DNA of 64,000 nt, taken from a virus. Below, one piece after another: positions 23,031 to 63,204 of this stretch. Position 1 is the stretch's first letter. Each line of letters starts with the position of its first letter. The position numbers and the translations under genes are program-made. The stretch lies in the IMG/VR virus record IMGVR_UViG_3300034082_004296, positions 1 to 64,000 of that record; one strand, 5' to 3'. The notes below the pieces were generated by a model, which did no database searches, was not told the origin of the DNA, and was given only the letters and a program-made list of their open reading frames with translations.

Positions 23031-23042
23031 ATTTATGGTGTG

Positions 23043-23252
23043 TTATTGATTACGTTTCCAATATAGTTCACCGTCTACATATATCTCCAAAACTTTGGAG
23101 TTTAAAGTAAGACGGCTACAATAGCCCTTAACATACTTGACCTTATCATAGATCAGTTTCTTACCGTTGTTCATCACCGCCATTACCTCAGATCCTCCAG
23201 GAGTAAGGCTAAGATCGTGTAATCGGTGTTCATCTTTTACTCTAATTGACAT
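23043..23252 (-). CDS. hypothetical protein
   Basis: 69-aa ORF. Confidence 0.6.
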   Translation of the reverse strand: MSIRVKDEHRLHDLSLTPGGSEVMAVMNNGKKLIYDKVKYVKGYCSRLTLNSKVLEIYVDGELYWKRNQ

Positions 23253-23329
23253 AATTCTAATATTTTTTTAAAACCATTCATCTAAACTGGGGAACAGCTT
23301 AAGATAAATAACTAAAATAATTATACACA

Positions 23330-44427: not shown

Positions 44428-44451
44428 ATAACTTAGAAATAGGTAATTTGC

Positions 44452-44571
44452 ATGAAGTATATTTTAAACCACATTAAGTACATACTTGAAAAGGTAACTA
44501 ATACTCGTATCATATGTGATAAGTGTGGATGGAATTGGGCAATTATAATAATGAGCAAGCCGACGCTTTAA
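44452..44571 (+). pseudogene. 39-aa leader-bearing ORF, possibly a truncated zinc-finger remnant
   Basis: MKYILNHIKYILEKVTNTRIICDKCGWNW...; single CxxC; late promoter 44423-44430. Confidence 0.35.
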
Positions 44572-44585
44572 AATAATCAATTAGC

Positions 44586-44777
44586 ATGGCCAAGAAAAAC
44601 GACAGTCAGCAAAATTTTGAAGATTACCGAAAAGGTAAAGCCAAATTACAAAATGCAGTTCTTCAGCACCCAGAAGAGAGTAAAGGAGGAAAATCAGTTT
44701 ATGATTTTATGAAAGGCTCAGTCAAACGAAACATGTGGGTGATTCCATATGAGCAGTTTAAAAAGCGAGATAAATAA
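44586..44777 (+). CDS. small basic protein
   Basis: 63-aa ORF, C-terminal VIPYEQF. Confidence 0.55.
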   Translation: MAKKNDSQQNFEDYRKGKAKLQNAVLQHPEESKGGKSVYDFMKGSVKRNMWVIPYEQFKKRDK

Positions 44778-44796
44778 CTAAAATCTTACAGGTAAT

Positions 44797-57513: not shown

Positions 57514-59172
57514 ATGGCACGTACTAAAATTTTCAAACGTTCAAGCGACAATCGCTTAGCGAACACATGGCAGCCGATTTTAGAAGGTTACGGTGCTGAT
57601 GTTGCTAAGACTCCATGGTTAGCTGAGTATGCTCACAACCACGCGATCTTTGATAACACTACACCTATCTTCGAGCAAACGACTCCAGGTGTATTTTTCC
57701 AAACTCCAGGTTCTCTTGGTGGTTTTATGGGGAACCCATCAGCTCCAACATCAGCAATGACTCCGTTCACTGCAGGTGCTAAGAATTCTTTCTCAGCTGA
57801 TGCTAACGGTTCAGGTGATAAATTTCCATCACTTTTACCAGTTGCTATTCAAGTAGCAGCAAAAACTATTGGTTTTGACCTAGTTCCAGTTATCCCTATG
57901 GATTCTCCAGTTGGATTCCTTCCTTACTTGGATTATCTATATGCTGGCGGTAGAACTTCTACTGGTAACTTCGATCCTTATTTGGTTAAGTTAGAAGGTT
58001 TAACATCAGATAGCTTCGCTGTTGCTCTTACTCCTGGTGATGCAGTAGCTATTGTTCCTGCTGGTGATTTCACAGCAGAGTTCGTTGGTTATTCACGTGT
58101 AGACGGTACAATAATCATCAAGATCACAGACGACGGTTCAGTTGACGGCGCTACTACTGCTGCTGCAGAGTATGTTGGTGCAGCGATTACTATCGATGGT
58201 AACGCCCTTGTTGTTGGTGCTGCATGTACTGGAGTTTCTCTAGTTTCTGCATTAGAAAACCACATCTCTGGTTTCACTTCAGTATCTGATGCAGATTACG
58301 CAACTACTCCATTCAATGGTTCTTACCTTCCTTCTACAGGATCTGTACCTGGATCAATGAAGAGAGAAGCTGGTGAAAACTCTAAATTCCGTCAAATGGG
58401 ATTAAGAATGTTCACTAAGTTTGTTGAGGCTGAGACTGACCAAGTTTCTATCTCTGCAACTGTTGAGCAGATCCAAGACTTGAACAGAGTTTGGAACTAT
58501 GACGTTATCTCTATGTTAGAGAACGTAGCGGTTAATGACTTGGCTCAATCAATCAACAAAAGATTAGTTGACCGTGTATTACAATTAGCTGATGTTCACT
58601 CTACAGAAGTTAACTTAGTTGAAGGTGGTGGTGGTGTTATTACTGACCTTGACTTGACTGCTGGTGGATTTGATAACACTTCTACATTACAAAGAAGATT
58701 AGTTACTAAAGTTCTTGAAATGGCAAACTTGATTTACCATAGAGGACGTTTCGGAGCTGGTACTTTCTTAGTAACTAATGGACGTGTTGCTTCTGCAATG
58801 GCTGATGTTGCTGGTTACTCAATCGCGCAAGTTCCAACTGATATGGGTGGAGTTGCAGGTAACCTTTACCCAGCTGGTAAAGTTTATGGAGTACAAGTTT
58901 ACGTTGATCCTAACATGGCTTGGGGAGACTCAAGAATCATGATTGGTCGTAAAGGTGCTGACGAAGAGCCAGGTGTTAAATTCATGCCATATATCATGGC
59001 TGAATCTCTTCAGACTATTTCTGAAGGTACATTCTCTCCAAAAATCGGTATGAAATCAAGATACGCGATTACTGAAGCTGGATGGCATCCTGAAACTCAG
59101 TACATTAATATTAATGTTACTGGAGCTGCTCTTGGAGTTCTTACAGGTTCAAATGTACTAGTAGGTATCTAA
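57514..59172 (+). CDS. major capsid protein (T4 gp23-like)
   Basis: DLVPVIPMDSPVG, EQIQDL, PYI...TFSPKIGMKSRYA; follows protease; strong codon bias. Confidence 0.92.
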   Translation: MARTKIFKRSSDNRLANTWQPILEGYGADVAKTPWLAEYAHNHAIFDNTTPIFEQTTPGVFFQTPGSLGGFMGNPSAPTSAMTPFTAGAKNSFSADANGSGDKFPSLLPVAIQVAAKTIGFDLVPVIPMDSPVGFLPYLDYLYAGGRTSTGNFDPYLVKLEGLTSDSFAVALTPGDAVAIVPAGDFTAEFVGYSRVDGTIIIKITDDGSVDGATTAAAEYVGAAITIDGNALVVGAACTGVSLVSALENHISGFTSVSDADYATTPFNGSYLPSTGSVPGSMKREAGENSKFRQMGLRMFTKFVEAETDQVSISATVEQIQDLNRVWNYDVISMLENVAVNDLAQSINKRLVDRVLQLADVHSTEVNLVEGGGGVITDLDLTAGGFDNTSTLQRRLVTKVLEMANLIYHRGRFGAGTFLVTNGRVASAMADVAGYSIAQVPTDMGGVAGNLYPAGKVYGVQVYVDPNMAWGDSRIMIGRKGADEEPGVKFMPYIMAESLQTISEGTFSPKIGMKSRYAITEAGWHPETQYININVTGAALGVLTGSNVLVGI

Positions 59173-59194: not shown

Positions 59195-59223
59195 AAAGAG
59201 GATTCGAAAGAGTCCTCTTTTTT
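59195..59223 (+). terminator. intrinsic terminator after capsid gene
   Basis: aaagaggattc-gaaa-gagtcctcttt followed by T-run. Confidence 0.8.
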
Positions 59224-59260
59224 GTTTATGGAGATAAATAATAAAAAACTTATAGAAATT

Positions 59261-59629
59261 ATGACAAGTTTAATGTCAACATTCTTAGGAATACAATCTC
59301 AATTTAAAGTGTTTCATTGGCAGACACAATCTTATGCTAAACATCAAGCATATGGTGGAATATATGATACACTTAGTGAATTATCTGACGATTTTATGGA
59401 AATATACATGGGAAAATACGGTCGAGTAGCCCTAGAGGGAGATACTGATTCTATCTTATTAGGTAATATTGGAGAAGTAAACATAGAGGAATTCCTGGAC
59501 ACTATTGTAGAATTCTTATTAAGTTTTAATCATAAGCTAGATGGTAACAAGGACAGTGATCTCTTAAATCTTAGAGATGAGATGCTAGCTGCAATTAATA
59601 AGCTTAAATACTTATTAACTCTAAAATAA
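59261..59629 (+). CDS. ferritin/Dps-like four-helix protein
   Basis: FHWQTQSYAKHQAY...DDFMEIYMG...LRDEM...KYLLTL; start moved to ATG 59261 after late promoter 59233-59240. Confidence 0.7.
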   Translation: MTSLMSTFLGIQSQFKVFHWQTQSYAKHQAYGGIYDTLSELSDDFMEIYMGKYGRVALEGDTDSILLGNIGEVNIEEFLDTIVEFLLSFNHKLDGNKDSDLLNLRDEMLAAINKLKYLLTLK

Positions 59630-60251: not shown

Positions 60252-60279
60252 AAAAGAGGACTTATGTGTCCTCTTTTTT
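60252..60279. terminator. bidirectional intrinsic terminator
   Basis: aaaagaggac-ttatgt-gtcctcttttt. Confidence 0.8.
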
Positions 60280-60282
60280 AGT

Positions 60283-60471
60283 ATGGCGGGCTCTCTTAAC
60301 CGAGAGAATAAACTAGTTCAAATGAAATTTGAGTTTATGATGGCATCCTTTTGAGCTCGTGAATCTTGAATTTTGAATATTCATCGCAATCAAACATCGG
60401 TTCTAGATAGTGTGTAGGGCATTGCTGCTCTTATAAACTTGCATACTCTTGCTCAGGTTAAGATCGCCCAT
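60283..60471 (-). ncRNA. candidate structured RNA downstream of DIP1984-like gene
   Basis: long closing helix with tandem GA/GA loop and G-U pair on minus strand; internal 7-nt TCA repeats. Confidence 0.55.
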
Positions 60472-60900
60472 TTAGATCTCAGTAGTATGATTAAATTTAT
60501 CTAGTTTTTCCTGTATCAATTCGATCTTGTTTTCGATCTCATCAATCTTGGCATCTTGCCATAGGATATCAAGCTCAGCATTCATCACAGTTGTGACGTT
60601 TTCGTATCTTTCTCTCCAAGTACCATTAGCAGTACTTACGGATCTTACTCTTTGTACCAGAGCTTTTAATTCAGAAAGCTCAAAAACTAGTGATCTAATT
60701 GGTTCAGAAGCAGTGTGGATTCGGGTCTTTAATTCGACTAAGTTAGCCAATTCGTTCTCAGCTTGTAAATAGAGATCTTTAGTACTATATGGTCTCTCTG
60801 CTCCCTCTTGAACAGAGTTATAACGATGGATCTTTTCCCAAATCTTCTGGATTCCAGCGATCTTTTTATTCTTTTCCTTTAGAGCTTGTGCGATTGTCAT
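60472..60900 (-). CDS. DIP1984-like coiled-coil protein
   Basis: MTIAQALKEKNK...NSVQEG.ERPY...LKTRIHTA...IQEKLDKFNHTTEI pattern. Confidence 0.65.
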   Translation of the reverse strand: MTIAQALKEKNKKIAGIQKIWEKIHRYNSVQEGAERPYSTKDLYLQAENELANLVELKTRIHTASEPIRSLVFELSELKALVQRVRSVSTANGTWRERYENVTTVMNAELDILWQDAKIDEIENKIELIQEKLDKFNHTTEI

Positions 60901-61396: not shown

Positions 61397-61420
61397 TCTA
61401 TTTAGATTTAATTAATAATC

Positions 61421-61460
61421 ATTAATAGTTAGTAATAATTATTAATAGTTAGTAATAATT
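61421..61460. repeat. perfect 20-bp tandem duplication
   Basis: attaatagttagtaataatt x2. Confidence 0.9.
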
Positions 61461-61587
61461 ATTCTTTTGTATCAAGAAATTCCTCAAACCACAAAAAAAG
61501 AAGAATACCAGGTATAGTTAAAATAATTCCTGGAAGTATAAACAAAGCAATTATGGATCTGCCAACCACCGTCAAGTATTTTTTCAT
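61459..61587 (-). CDS. 42-aa membrane protein (not in ORF track)
   Basis: MKKYLTVVGRSIIALFILPGIILTIPGILLFLWFEEFLDTKE; ATGA overlap with upstream ORF. Confidence 0.5.
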   Translation of the reverse strand: MKKYLTVVGRSIIALFILPGIILTIPGILLFLWFEEFLDTKE

Positions 61588-61836: not shown

Positions 61837-63204
61837 TTAGCTATTATACTCTTTTTGAAGTGCTTTTTTCAATTCTTGTAAATCTTCTCGATACATGTTC
61901 AGAGGCTCCTTCTTCTTAATCTCTTCAAGTTCCCTCTCTTTTTGAAACTCAGCACTTATTAAGTCTTCATATGTTTCCTTAGTAAGTGAATGAATCGGCA
62001 TCCCTAATAGGTATTGATATGATCCATTTATCTCATCAAAGTTATCTGTCTCCAAGTAGAGAATTATCTCTTTTCTAGGAACATTATTGATCTTTAACTT
62101 ACCCTCAATTATGGCTTTTACGAAACGTGCTCTATTTGAGAGTAGAGCGAGTTCTTGATTTAGAGTATCAATAATAAATTGCTTTCTCTTTTCATAAAAA
62201 GTGAGCCTAAATTGAACGAAATATTCAATAATCTCACTGGCTGAATTAAAGATTTTTAATTTACCGTGTTCGTCCAATACTGTAAAGTTCTCAGTCTGGC
62301 GTTCTTCCATCTTTAGGAGTCTCTTTAATCTTACTGAGTCACCTAACATCTTAAGATCTTCTCGTCTAAACTTAAGAACATAATTGATGTTAGACTTGCA
62401 GTTATTTTCGTAACTTGCAATTCTTCGGGAATCTTCAAGATCGATTAAGTGCTGGTCGAATTTTTCATAAGTAACAGAAGGAGGAAGCTCTGTAATATTC
62501 ACAGTCGTGGTATTTTTTACTTCATACTTTCCACTAAATATCCATGAAAACTTTTCGGGGTCTATTAGTTCGCAACCTCCAATAAACTCTCTGTTCCATG
62601 GAGTAGGTTCAGCATATTTTTTACCCTCTAGAGATTTTAAACAGGCATCGATTAGGCTAATTGGATTGCGATTTAATATATTTGTTGCGAAGCCTACTGC
62701 AATCCCGCTACCGCCATTCAGGAGGACAGTTGGGATAATAGGTAAGAAATATTTAGGTTCGATCTCATTGCCTTCCTCGTATCGAGATTCTAATAATTCA
62801 AAATCTTTATATAGGAGTCTAAAGTTCTTATGTAACTTGGTTGCTATATAACGAGGAGCGGCTGCTTCTGGCGAACGTAAGGATCCAAACTGACCAATAT
62901 CTTCTAATACTGGCATTGAGTTCTTAAACCTTTGTGCCATGCCAATAATTGCTGAATTAAGAGAGCCGTCTCCATGGTGATAAAAAGCGTCTGCCGCCAC
63001 CCGACCGGCTAATTGAAAGATCTTCATTGGTTTTTCTGAACCGTTCTTCCATACTTTATTTGCAACAAAGATTACTTTGCGTTGAGTTGGCTTGAATCCA
63101 TCGATCACTGATGGAATTGCCCGCTCTTCAACGACATATACTGCATACTCCTTATAGTCGTTATCTAAATAGTCGGTTACTGTCTTTATTTCTGGCTTTC
63201 GCAT
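61837..63204 (-). CDS. type II DNA topoisomerase, GyrA-like subunit (T4 gp52-like)
   Basis: DGFKPTQRK, YHHGD, AAAPRY catalytic Tyr, NGGSGIAVGFAT. Confidence 0.92.
   Translation of the reverse strand: MRKPEIKTVTDYLDNDYKEYAVYVVEERAIPSVIDGFKPTQRKVIFVANKVWKNGSEKPMKIFQLAGRVAADAFYHHGDGSLNSAIIGMAQRFKNSMPVLEDIGQFGSLRSPEAAAPRYIATKLHKNFRLLYKDFELLESRYEEGNEIEPKYFLPIIPTVLLNGGSGIAVGFATNILNRNPISLIDACLKSLEGKKYAEPTPWNREFIGGCELIDPEKFSWIFSGKYEVKNTTTVNITELPPSVTYEKFDQHLIDLEDSRRIASYENNCKSNINYVLKFRREDLKMLGDSVRLKRLLKMEERQTENFTVLDEHGKLKIFNSASEIIEYFVQFRLTFYEKRKQFIIDTLNQELALLSNRARFVKAIIEGKLKINNVPRKEIILYLETDNFDEINGSYQYLLGMPIHSLTKETYEDLISAEFQKERELEEIKKKEPLNMYREDLQELKKALQKEYNS

What the first reader, a model, noticed from the sequence alone, without database searches (positions are those of the whole stretch)
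60283..60900. DIP1984-like coiled-coil protein followed by a rod-shaped RNA with 7-nt TCA repeats: candidate ribonucleoprotein system
Seen: a ~190-nt non-coding stretch fills the space between the stop codon and a terminator. On the gene's strand its ends pair: GGGC-GA-UCUUAACC-U-GAG..AGAGUA..AGUU with AACU..UAUUCU-CUC-GGUUAAGA-GA-GCCC, including a tandem GA/GA loop and a G-U pair that favour this strand. The interior has periodic units AUUCAAA-AUUCAAG-AUUCACG-AGCUCAAA and CAUCAUA-AACUCAA-AUUUCAU. Such a long UTR is exceptional in this compact genome. Known: oligomeric RNA binders such as TRAP read short periodic repeats, and type III toxin-antitoxin systems pair a protein with a repeat RNA. 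Inference: the protein oligomer binds one repeat per subunit, forming an undescribed RNP (regulator, toxin-antitoxin or sponge).
Basis: partly seen in the sequence, partly recalled or inferred. Interest (0 to 1): 0.85.

Follow-up and report, generated by a model that had tools for sequence, protein, structure and literature searches.

The report
Phage protein with heptad-repeat partner RNA
Right behind a small helical-protein gene, this T4-like freshwater phage encodes a conserved, folded 189-base RNA with evenly spaced 7-base units; gene and RNA are kept or lost together in relatives, so they probably form an undescribed protein-RNA particle of unknown job.

Summary
A 189-nt non-coding stretch (60283-60471, minus strand) lies between the stop codon of a 142-aa gene and an intrinsic terminator. 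Its ends form a long rod with a tandem G·A loop. Inside are a GCAA-capped hairpin, three GAU triplets and a short run of 7-nt units.

The window's own repeat run is weak; the case rests on comparison. A like RNA follows, or in one case neighbours, the gene's relatives in all but two of about 56 non-redundant loci, down to 27% protein identity and in other genomic contexts. The rod shows compensatory changes. It pairs better on the gene's strand in 30 of 31 lineages. Lag-7 periodicity is general, with consensus y-U-Y-A-A-R-a.

In syntenic phages, 13 loci have both parts, none has only one, and two lineages keep remnants of both. One distant locus has the RNA on the opposite strand.

The protein has the DIP1984/DUF6847 fold (3KDQ) and is predicted to form a symmetric dimer.

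No Rfam family or paper matches. Binding, processing and function are untested. A type III toxin-antitoxin reading is not supported.

Earlier notes of this scan report the same kind of pair on other DNA.

The parts
60472..60900 (-). Gene for a 142-aa helical protein of the DIP1984/DUF6847 fold, phage subfamily with N-terminal MTIAQALKEKNK and C-terminal LDxFNHT motifs
   Evidence: ORF. NF038048 E 1.1e-7 over the full length and PF20935 E 1.1e-5. AF2 model pLDDT 90.5. 3kdq_A is the top match: Foldseek prob 1.0, TM 0.58; VIA Z 12.5, rmsd 4.8, 140 aa aligned.
60283..60471 (-). Structured non-coding RNA of 189 nt, co-transcribed 3' of the gene
   Evidence: Fold. Model R1 hits 60283-60472 at 155 bits, the only hit in the 176-kb record. 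Homologous RNAs are seen.
60434..60469 (-). 5' strand of the closing rod P1 (RNA nt 3-38)
   Evidence: Covariation.
60288..60320 (-). 3' strand of the closing rod P1 (RNA nt 152-184)
   Evidence: Covariation.
60464..60465 (-). 5' half of the tandem G·A internal loop (RNA nt 7-8). It pairs with RNA nt 179-180 at 60292-60293.
   Evidence: Read directly from the sequence. GA, GGA/GAA or AGUA/GAA-type loops sit at the same place in other lineages.
60416..60431 (-). Hairpin P2 capped by a GCAA (GNRA) tetraloop (RNA nt 41-56)
   Evidence: P2 pairs covary (helix 5). A GCAA-capped hairpin is found in 7 of 36 lineages against 4% of shuffles, so it is not universal.
60383..60398 (-). Three GAU triplets spaced 7 and 6 nt apart (RNA nt 74-89)
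   Evidence: Invariant columns in A2 and A3. Seen in most lineages.
60348..60378 (-). Main heptad run: AUUCAAA AUUCAAG AUUCACG AGCUCAAA (RNA nt 94-124)
   Evidence: This is the most conserved block of the RNA in A2, A5 and A6.
60322..60342 (-). Second, degenerate heptad-like tract including CUCAAAU (RNA nt 130-150)
   Evidence: The UCAAAAYUC unit is conserved at this place in relatives.
60252..60277 (-). Intrinsic terminator ending the gene-plus-RNA transcript. It also faces the convergent late operon.
   Evidence: Equivalent terminators lie 172-220 nt after the stop in 25 of the non-redundant relatives scanned.

Best explanation
The gene and the RNA are the two halves of one accessory module. 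The gene lies last in a leftward operon that includes a topoisomerase II gene, so early or middle expression is inferred. Its transcript runs on for 189 nt to an intrinsic terminator.

This tail folds into a closed RNA. The 5' and 3' ends pair into a long rod interrupted by G·A-type internal loops. The interior presents a GNRA-capped hairpin, three GAU triplets and a mostly single-stranded run of 7-nt units (consensus y-U-Y-A-A-R-a).

The small DIP1984-fold protein, predicted to be a symmetric dimer, most likely binds this RNA. The invariant heptads would be read by the invariant N-/C-terminal residues of the protein, and the rod protects the ends. The result would be a ribonucleoprotein that acts in trans.

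Shown: the RNA is real, structured, strand-specific and strictly linked to the gene.

Inferred: direct binding, which part of the RNA is bound, the stoichiometry, the expression timing and any cellular target.
For: (1) A like RNA follows the gene in relatives from 96% down to 27% identity. This holds in T4-like phages, in 386-kb and 462-kb phages with different neighbours, and in a GC-rich contig that keeps UCAAG heptads.

(2) The rod and P2 covary. 89.3% of cells are paired against 78.1% in shuffles, and 13 of 22 pairs change on both sides. The covariation score is 0.327 against 0.167 (0 of 500 shuffles) and 0.06-0.13 when partners are slid. Distant lineages close the RNA with unrelated sequences.

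(3) The rod arms pair better on the gene's strand in 30 of 31 lineages, by a mean of 6 kcal/mol (p = 5e-6).

(4) Periodicity is general. Autocorrelation is 0.43 at lag 7 and 0.39 at lag 14, against about 0.23 baseline. Chains of 3 or more heptads occur in 55% of 56 gene-downstream regions against 2.1% of 560 control regions.

(5) Linkage is strict. Of 25 loci anchored on the neighbouring DUF5856 gene, 13 have both protein and RNA and none has only one. Two lineages (L092/L093 and L101/L102) keep only the first 12-13 codons and have lost the RNA too.

(6) A search starting from the RNA core found 17 loci. Twelve have the gene about 100 nt upstream. The other 5 fail the covariance model and are taken as chance matches.

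(7) In L044 the RNA lies on the opposite strand about 850 nt away, after an intervening gene. So it is a separable unit that still stays beside the gene.

(8) The homodimer prediction passed. The score was 0.60 against a best of 3 controls of 0.00. That mark was reached by 20 of 30 proteins solved as pairs of one chain and by 1 of 23 solved as single chains. The runs agree in at least 96% of contacts and the partner's pLDDT is at least 89. 3KDQ was solved with several chains, so the pass may partly reflect likeness to it.

(9) The protein's invariant residues cluster at residues 1-12 and 130-139, outside the predicted dimer interface.
Against: No experiment or model here shows protein-RNA contact, and the tools cannot co-fold RNA. 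A symmetric dimer does not by itself explain a rail of 4-9 units.

The window's own heptad run is short and would not stand out alone. An in-register heptad score ranks it only 5th in the genome.

Gene and RNA are adjacent, so joint loss can result from a single deletion.

Two canonical bacterial DIP1984 genes and a crAss-like homologue lack the heptad RNA. The fold therefore does not require such an RNA.

No expression data could be obtained.
Confidence: 0.55

Rival explanations
1. The RNA is an independent trans-acting decoy or sponge for a host factor, such as an RNA-binding protein, a nuclease or a tRNA-handling enzyme. The neighbouring protein works in the same pathway but does not bind the RNA.
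For: The heptads are single-stranded, G-poor and invariant across hosts. In L044 the RNA is its own transcription unit. The unit U-U-C-A-A-R-A resembles tRNA T-loop and anticodon-loop sequences (my own reading of the consensus).
Against: It does not explain why the RNA is never found without this gene. It also does not explain why the heptad consensus stays constant from T4-like phages to huge phages of other contexts, as the protein's terminal motifs do.
Confidence: 0.2
2. The tail is a cis-acting 3' UTR element that stabilises or autoregulates the gene's mRNA and has no function as a separate RNA.
For: It starts 0-8 nt after the stop codon in most loci, ends at the terminator, and no promoter-like site lies between gene and RNA.
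Against: In L044 the RNA sits on the opposite strand. In L085 and several larger variants it is displaced by 150-270 nt. A closing rod, a GNRA hairpin and conserved repeat motifs are far more than an exonuclease block needs.
Confidence: 0.1
3. It is a toxin-antitoxin-like pair in which the RNA neutralises a toxic protein (type III-like).
For: A protein gene is coupled to a repeat-bearing RNA, and the module is accessory and is lost in some close relatives.
Against: There is no ToxN/AbiQ-like fold or match and no defence-system match. The units are 7 nt and degenerate rather than 34-36-nt tandem repeats. The RNA lies downstream with no terminator between it and the gene.
Confidence: 0.05
4. The repeats act at the DNA level, as iterons of an origin, a partition site or an operator bound by the neighbouring protein. 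The inverted ends would then be incidental.
For: Short evenly spaced repeats next to the gene of a small dimeric helical protein are typical of centromere-like sites.
Against: The rod is kept through G-U pairs that favour one strand in 30 of 31 lineages. It also shows compensatory changes. G·A loops and a GNRA cap are RNA motifs, and an intrinsic terminator follows in the gene's direction.
Confidence: 0.03

Closest known systems
DIP1984 family / Pfam DUF6847 (NF038048, PF20935; crystal structure 3KDQ of a Corynebacterium diphtheriae protein; often annotated 'septicolysin')
   Same: The length is the same, the sequence match is full-length and colinear, and the predicted fold is the same: four helices and a beta-hairpin.
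   Different: It scores below both curated cut-offs and has its own invariant N- and C-terminal motifs. The two canonical members examined here have no heptad RNA nearby. The family has no known function. Papers only list it on Acinetobacter plasmids.
Ro60 (Rsr) with Y RNAs
   Same: A protein gene lies next to the gene of its small RNA. The RNA's 5' and 3' ends pair into a long stem with conserved internal loops, and a large interior module is left free.
   Different: No TROVE-domain protein is found in the record held. The partner has an unrelated helical fold. Y RNAs carry no heptad run, and there is no Rfam match.
RNAs read by oligomeric proteins through evenly spaced short motifs: TRAP with GAG/UAG repeats, HutP with UAG-N4-UAG-N4-UAG, CsrB/RsmZ with GGA, CrcZ with A-rich motifs (from my own knowledge of these systems)
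   Same: Short motifs recur at a fixed spacing. HutP sites also have a 7-nt period. The motifs lie in a largely unpaired tract.
   Different: The protein family is different (no TrpBP or HutP match) and is predicted to be a dimer, not a ring. The RNA is a closed stand-alone molecule encoded beside the protein gene, not a leader or a global regulator. Binding is untested.
Type III toxin-antitoxin systems (ToxIN, CptIN, TenpIN)
   Same: A protein is coupled to a repeat-bearing RNA encoded next to it, in the phage-host arena.
   Different: The antitoxin repeats there are 34-36-nt near-identical tandem units upstream of an endoribonuclease toxin. Here the units are 7 nt and degenerate, the RNA is downstream, and the protein is not a ToxN-like nuclease.

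Membership tests
DIP1984 family / DUF6847 | Score over the curated cut-off of NF038048 (70 bits) or PF20935 (27 bits) | tested here: not met
   32.1 bits (E 1.1e-7, profile positions 2-148 of 149) and 25.8 bits (E 1.1e-5). Many close homologues carry a precomputed PF20935 hit. I read it as a divergent sister subfamily.
DIP1984 family / DUF6847 | Fold of 3KDQ: a helical bundle with a beta-hairpin, about 150 aa | tested here: met
   AF2 pLDDT 90.5. 3kdq_A ranks first by Foldseek (prob 1.0, TM 0.58, E 3.7e-3). It also ranks first by VIA-align (Z 12.5, rmsd 4.8, 140 aa aligned), with the next hit at Z 9.2.
Type III toxin-antitoxin | Toxin is a ToxN/AbiQ/CptN/TenpN-type endoribonuclease | tested here: not met
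   No such Pfam, PHROG or PADLOC match. The fold is DIP1984-like.
Type III toxin-antitoxin | Antitoxin is an array of near-identical repeats of about 34-36 nt upstream of the toxin gene, with a terminator between them | tested here: not met
   Period 7, 2.7 copies. The RNA lies downstream and the only terminator comes after the RNA.
Type III toxin-antitoxin | The protein is toxic and is neutralised by the RNA | not testable with these tools
   Needs expression of the protein with and without the RNA.
TRAP / HutP-type repeat-reading regulators | Protein of the TrpBP or HutP family forming a ring | tested here: not met
   No such Pfam match. Only a symmetric dimer was tested and predicted.
TRAP / HutP-type repeat-reading regulators | Target RNA carries short motifs at a fixed spacing | tested here: met
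   Lag-7 autocorrelation is 0.43 against about 0.23 baseline. The consensus is y-U-Y-A-A-R-a, and GAU triplets are 6-7 nt apart.
Ro60-Y RNA | TROVE-domain protein partner | tested here: not met
   No PF05731 match in the 176-kb record, which is about 70% complete. The adjacent gene has another fold.
Ro60-Y RNA | Match to a Y RNA model | tested here: not met
   No Rfam match at E <= 1 in the window region or at E <= 10 in 7 lineages.
   It is absent from the cmscan lists at E <= 10 for the RNA of this record (L001) and six relatives (L078, L023, L046, L052, L067, L049).

The most novel reading that the evidence does not exclude
This is one lineage of a very widespread, uncatalogued class of ribonucleoprotein. 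The protein family alone has 1,760 clusters at 50% identity. A DIP1984-fold dimer would hold an end-closed RNA that displays a rail of U-turn-like heptads resembling tRNA T-loop or anticodon-loop sequences. Phages would make it early, to titrate or recruit a host tRNA- or RNA-handling factor for counter-defence or an RNA-damage response.
Probability: 0.12. Interest if true: 0.9.

Novelty: categorically new. Interest (0 to 1): 0.78.

Why it matters
If the pair is a ribonucleoprotein, it gives a first functional handle on a large protein family that has a solved structure but no known role. The profile finds 1,760 clusters at 50% identity. It also adds a structured RNA class that is missing from Rfam.

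The RNA's design is unusual: a protected, end-closed scaffold presenting a rail of identical 7-nt units. That makes direct tests easy to set up:
- mutate the heptads or the rod;
- count the protein copies bound per RNA;
- pull down host partners.

The module is accessory, sits in an operon with a topoisomerase II gene and is lost in some sister phages. It may therefore mark a host-takeover or counter-defence function.

Tried and rejected
- **Broader covariance model.** Formal covariation therefore rests on the near group (16 sequences). Distant lineages are judged from individual folds.
- **RNAalifold on plain MAFFT alignments.** It found no pairs on A2, because the arms were misaligned.
- **Whole-molecule fold energy.** It does not tell the strands apart: 15 of 31 lineages favour the gene's strand. 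Only the rod arms do. The arms were chosen from the sense fold, which gives a mild bias.
- **Self-versus-cross duplex control.** It was confounded by shared arms and GC-rich terminators. The RNA's own 3' arm was best in only 5 of 36 cases, and I give it no weight.
- **In-register heptad score.** It is not specific in this AT-rich genome: the RNA ranks 5th.
- **RNA-level conservation of the gene's 5' end.** I asked whether the invariant N-terminus reflects heptads in the mRNA. Rejected, because synonymous sites vary freely.
- **tRNA or tmRNA reading of the GCCC-N-CCA 3' end.** ARAGORN finds nothing, and the CCA occurs only in the near group.
- **RtcB or TROVE genes in this record.** None found.
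- **Phage T5.** There is no PF20935 match at E <= 1, so that earlier lead could not be reproduced with this model.
- **Annotation libraries and papers.** PHROGs and PADLOC give nothing informative. There are no papers for DUF6847, PF20935 or RAGATH-27, and only plasmid gene lists for DIP1984 and septicolysin.
- **Protein atlas.** It returns only the same family.
- **GCAA-capped P2.** It is not universal: 7 of 36 lineages.

Full report
**What is in the window.** The window is the first 64 kb of a 176-kb viral record. It is a T4-like phage. A Gp23-type capsid gene lies at 57514-59172 and a topoisomerase II gene at 61837-63204. On the minus strand, a 142-aa ORF (60472-60900) ends a leftward operon. 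It is followed by 189 nt without a conserved ORF, then by an intrinsic terminator at 60277-60252. No promoter-like site lies between the gene and this tail. The ORF-free stretch is the fourth longest of 138 in the record, where the median is 28 nt.

**The fold.** On the gene's strand the 189 nt fold at -45.8 kcal/mol (z -2.7; none of 200 shuffles as good). RNA nt 3-38 pair with nt 152-184 in a long rod. Inside lie:
- a hairpin capped by a GCAA tetraloop (nt 41-56);
- three GAU triplets (nt 74-89);
- the run AUUCAAA-AUUCAAG-AUUCACG-AGCUCAAA (nt 94-124).

On its own the repeat run is weak. TRF gives period 7, 2.7 copies and score 31. The TTCA-N3 pattern occurs once against 0.07 expected. An in-register heptad score ranks the site only fifth in the genome.

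**The protein.** It gives full-length but sub-threshold matches to NF038048 (DIP1984 family) and PF20935 (DUF6847). An AlphaFold model built from 34 homologues has pLDDT 90.5, with four helices and a beta-hairpin. Its best structural match is 3KDQ, the DIP1984 protein. Foldseek gives probability 1.0 and TM 0.58. VIA-align gives Z 12.5 over 140 residues (rmsd 4.8), against 9.2 for the next entry.

Residues 1-12 (MTIAQALKEKNK) and 130-139 (Q..LD.FNH) are invariant or nearly so across relatives. Synonymous sites in the first codons vary freely, so this conservation acts on the protein, not on the mRNA.

A two-copy fold passed its controls. The score was 0.60 against a best of three controls of 0.00. 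That mark was reached by 20 of 30 proteins solved as pairs of one chain and by 1 of 23 solved as single chains. The runs agree in at least 96% of contacts, and the partner's pLDDT is at least 89. The interface is symmetric, spans residues 21-110, and leaves the conserved termini free. 3KDQ was solved with several chains, so this pass may partly reflect likeness to it.

A profile of the family finds 1,760 clusters at 50% identity with E <= 0.001, nearly all 140-150 aa long.

**Comparison with relatives.**
- Homologues from 97% down to about 27% identity were collected from viral contigs, genome bins and assemblies. Most lie on phage contigs of 20-460 kb. The genome bins are mostly freshwater Bacteroidota, which hints at the host.
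- In all but two of about 56 non-redundant loci, the stop codon is followed or neighboured by an RNA of the same plan. That plan is a closing rod, GAU triplets, then a run of UCAAR or UUAAR units, usually ended by a terminator 172-220 nt after the stop.
- This holds in a 386-kb phage with unrelated neighbours (34% identity) and in the 462-kb phage LR756500.
- It also holds in a GC-rich contig binned with a Planctomycetota genome, where the units read UCAAG.
- The core aligns in register across sub-lineages.
- Autocorrelation of the core peaks at lag 7 (0.43) and lag 14 (0.39), over a baseline of about 0.23. The unit consensus is y-U-Y-A-A-R-a.
- Chains of three or more strict units occur in 55% of gene-downstream regions, against 2.1% of 560 control regions taken from the same loci.

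**RNA structure.** A covariance model was built from six near relatives, covering four rod helices and P2. It finds one copy in the whole 176-kb record and every near-group RNA. On 16 aligned RNAs:
- 89.3% of cells are paired, against 78.1% in shuffles;
- 13 of 22 pairs change on both sides;
- the covariation score is 0.327, against 0.167 in shuffles (0 of 500) and 0.06-0.13 when partners are slid.

That alignment was fitted to the model's structure, which leans the counts towards it.

Distant lineages close the RNA with unrelated sequences. They often carry GGA/GAA, GGAU/UGAA or AGUA/GAA-type internal loops where the window has GA/GA. The rod arms pair better on the gene's strand in 30 of 31 lineages, by a mean of 6 kcal/mol (p = 5e-6). 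This argues for an RNA made from this strand rather than a DNA-level inverted repeat. The arms were chosen from the sense fold, which gives a mild bias. No Rfam family matches at E <= 1 in the window region, or at E <= 10 in seven lineages.

**Linkage.** I anchored on the neighbouring DUF5856 gene and fetched 25 loci.
- Thirteen have both the protein (profile E < 1e-60) and the RNA (model E < 1e-9). None has only one.
- Two sister lineages have the same flanking genes, with topoisomerase 74-91% identical, but lack both parts. They keep only the first 12-13 codons of the gene. L092 also keeps about 15 nt of the RNA's 5' end.

A search of the viral collection starting from the RNA core gave 17 loci. 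Twelve have the gene about 100 nt upstream on the same strand. The other five fail the covariance model and are taken as chance matches.

In L044 (32% identity) the RNA lies on the opposite strand about 850 nt away, after an intervening 283-aa gene. It has its own closing rod and about ten 7-nt units. So the RNA is a separable unit that still stays beside the gene.

**Exceptions.**
- L050 has a rod without a core.
- The crAss-like phage cr6_1 homologue (26% identity) is followed only by a short hairpin.
- The two canonical DIP1984 genes found in 401 Bacteroidota genomes have no heptads nearby.

**Interpretation.** The best reading is a two-part module whose protein binds its neighbouring RNA. 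I put this at about 0.55.

The argument is indirect. Co-occurrence is strict across deep divergence and changing context. The two parts decay together. And an invariant RNA unit is matched by invariant protein termini that lie outside the predicted dimer interface.

Which RNA part is bound, how many protein copies bind, and what the particle does are all open. A symmetric dimer does not by itself explain a rail of 4-9 units.

Rivals:
- An independent decoy RNA whose neighbour acts in the same pathway without binding it (0.2).
- A cis-acting 3' UTR element (0.1; weakened by L044 and by displaced copies).
- A toxin-antitoxin-like pair (0.05; the defining features of type III systems are not met).
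- DNA-level iterons (0.03; contradicted by strand-specific pairing and covariation).

**Comparison with what is known.** The protein is a divergent relative of a family with a structure but no known function. The papers found mention it only in gene lists of Acinetobacter plasmids. The RNA is not in Rfam.

In design it recalls Y RNAs, which have paired ends with a free interior and a gene beside the protein's. It also recalls RNAs read through evenly spaced motifs, such as those of TRAP, HutP, CsrB and CrcZ. It meets the membership criteria of none of these. The unit also resembles tRNA T-loop and anticodon-loop sequences (U-U-C-A-A-R-A). That is my own reading and is untested.

**Earlier notes of this scan.** They describe the same kind of pair on other DNA: large phages, bacteria, an archaeon and a giant virus. 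I treated them as leads.
- Universal co-occurrence: reproduced on my own loci.
- The RtcB and Ro60 links: not found in this record.
- The RAGATH-27 and T5 leads: not reproduced here.

Noticed in passing
L092:3400-3600 (also L093) and L102:3560-3700 (also L101): Sister phages with the same flanking genes carry a decayed remnant of the module. The first 12-13 codons (MTIAQTPKEKNKK..., MPIAQSLKEKTK...) are followed by a premature stop, and the RNA is gone. L092 keeps about 15 nt of the RNA's 5' end.
   Followed up: partly
L044:3820-3990 (minus strand): The partner RNA here is encoded on the opposite strand, about 850 nt from the gene, after an intervening 283-aa ORF. It has about ten UUAAR heptads and its own GGGGUAGG/CCUACCCC closing stem.
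   Followed up: partly
L085:1966-2110: A duplicated fragment of the gene's 3' end (it would read IELLQDKVDEYNTTHKIE) lies between the stop codon and the displaced RNA.
   Followed up: no
window 61397-61583: A 187-nt gap free of ORFs of 70 aa or more, which holds a 42-aa ORF (61459-61587, minus strand) and a 20-nt unit (TAATAGTTAGTAATAATTAT) repeated twice in tandem at about 61424-61463.
   Followed up: no
window 23031-23329 and 44428-44796; genome 108449-108884: The three longest ORF-free gaps of the record (299, 369 and 436 nt). They are candidates for other non-coding elements.
   Followed up: no
L073:2020-2060: Downstream of a canonical bacterial DIP1984 gene lies a T-arm-like GGTTCGATCCCCAC, possibly a tRNA or tmRNA fragment or an attachment site.
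   Followed up: no
L080 (crAss-like phage cr6_1, NC_055894.1 49397-49891): gp57 is a 164-aa distant homologue (26% identity). It is followed only by a hairpin of about 60 nt, without heptads. A structured non-coding region of about 350 nt lies upstream of the gene.
   Followed up: no
window 59222-59629: A DUF5856 protein (PHROG label 'starvation-inducible transcriptional regulator') lies directly after the major capsid gene. This neighbourhood is conserved in the relatives used as the synteny anchor.
   Followed up: partly
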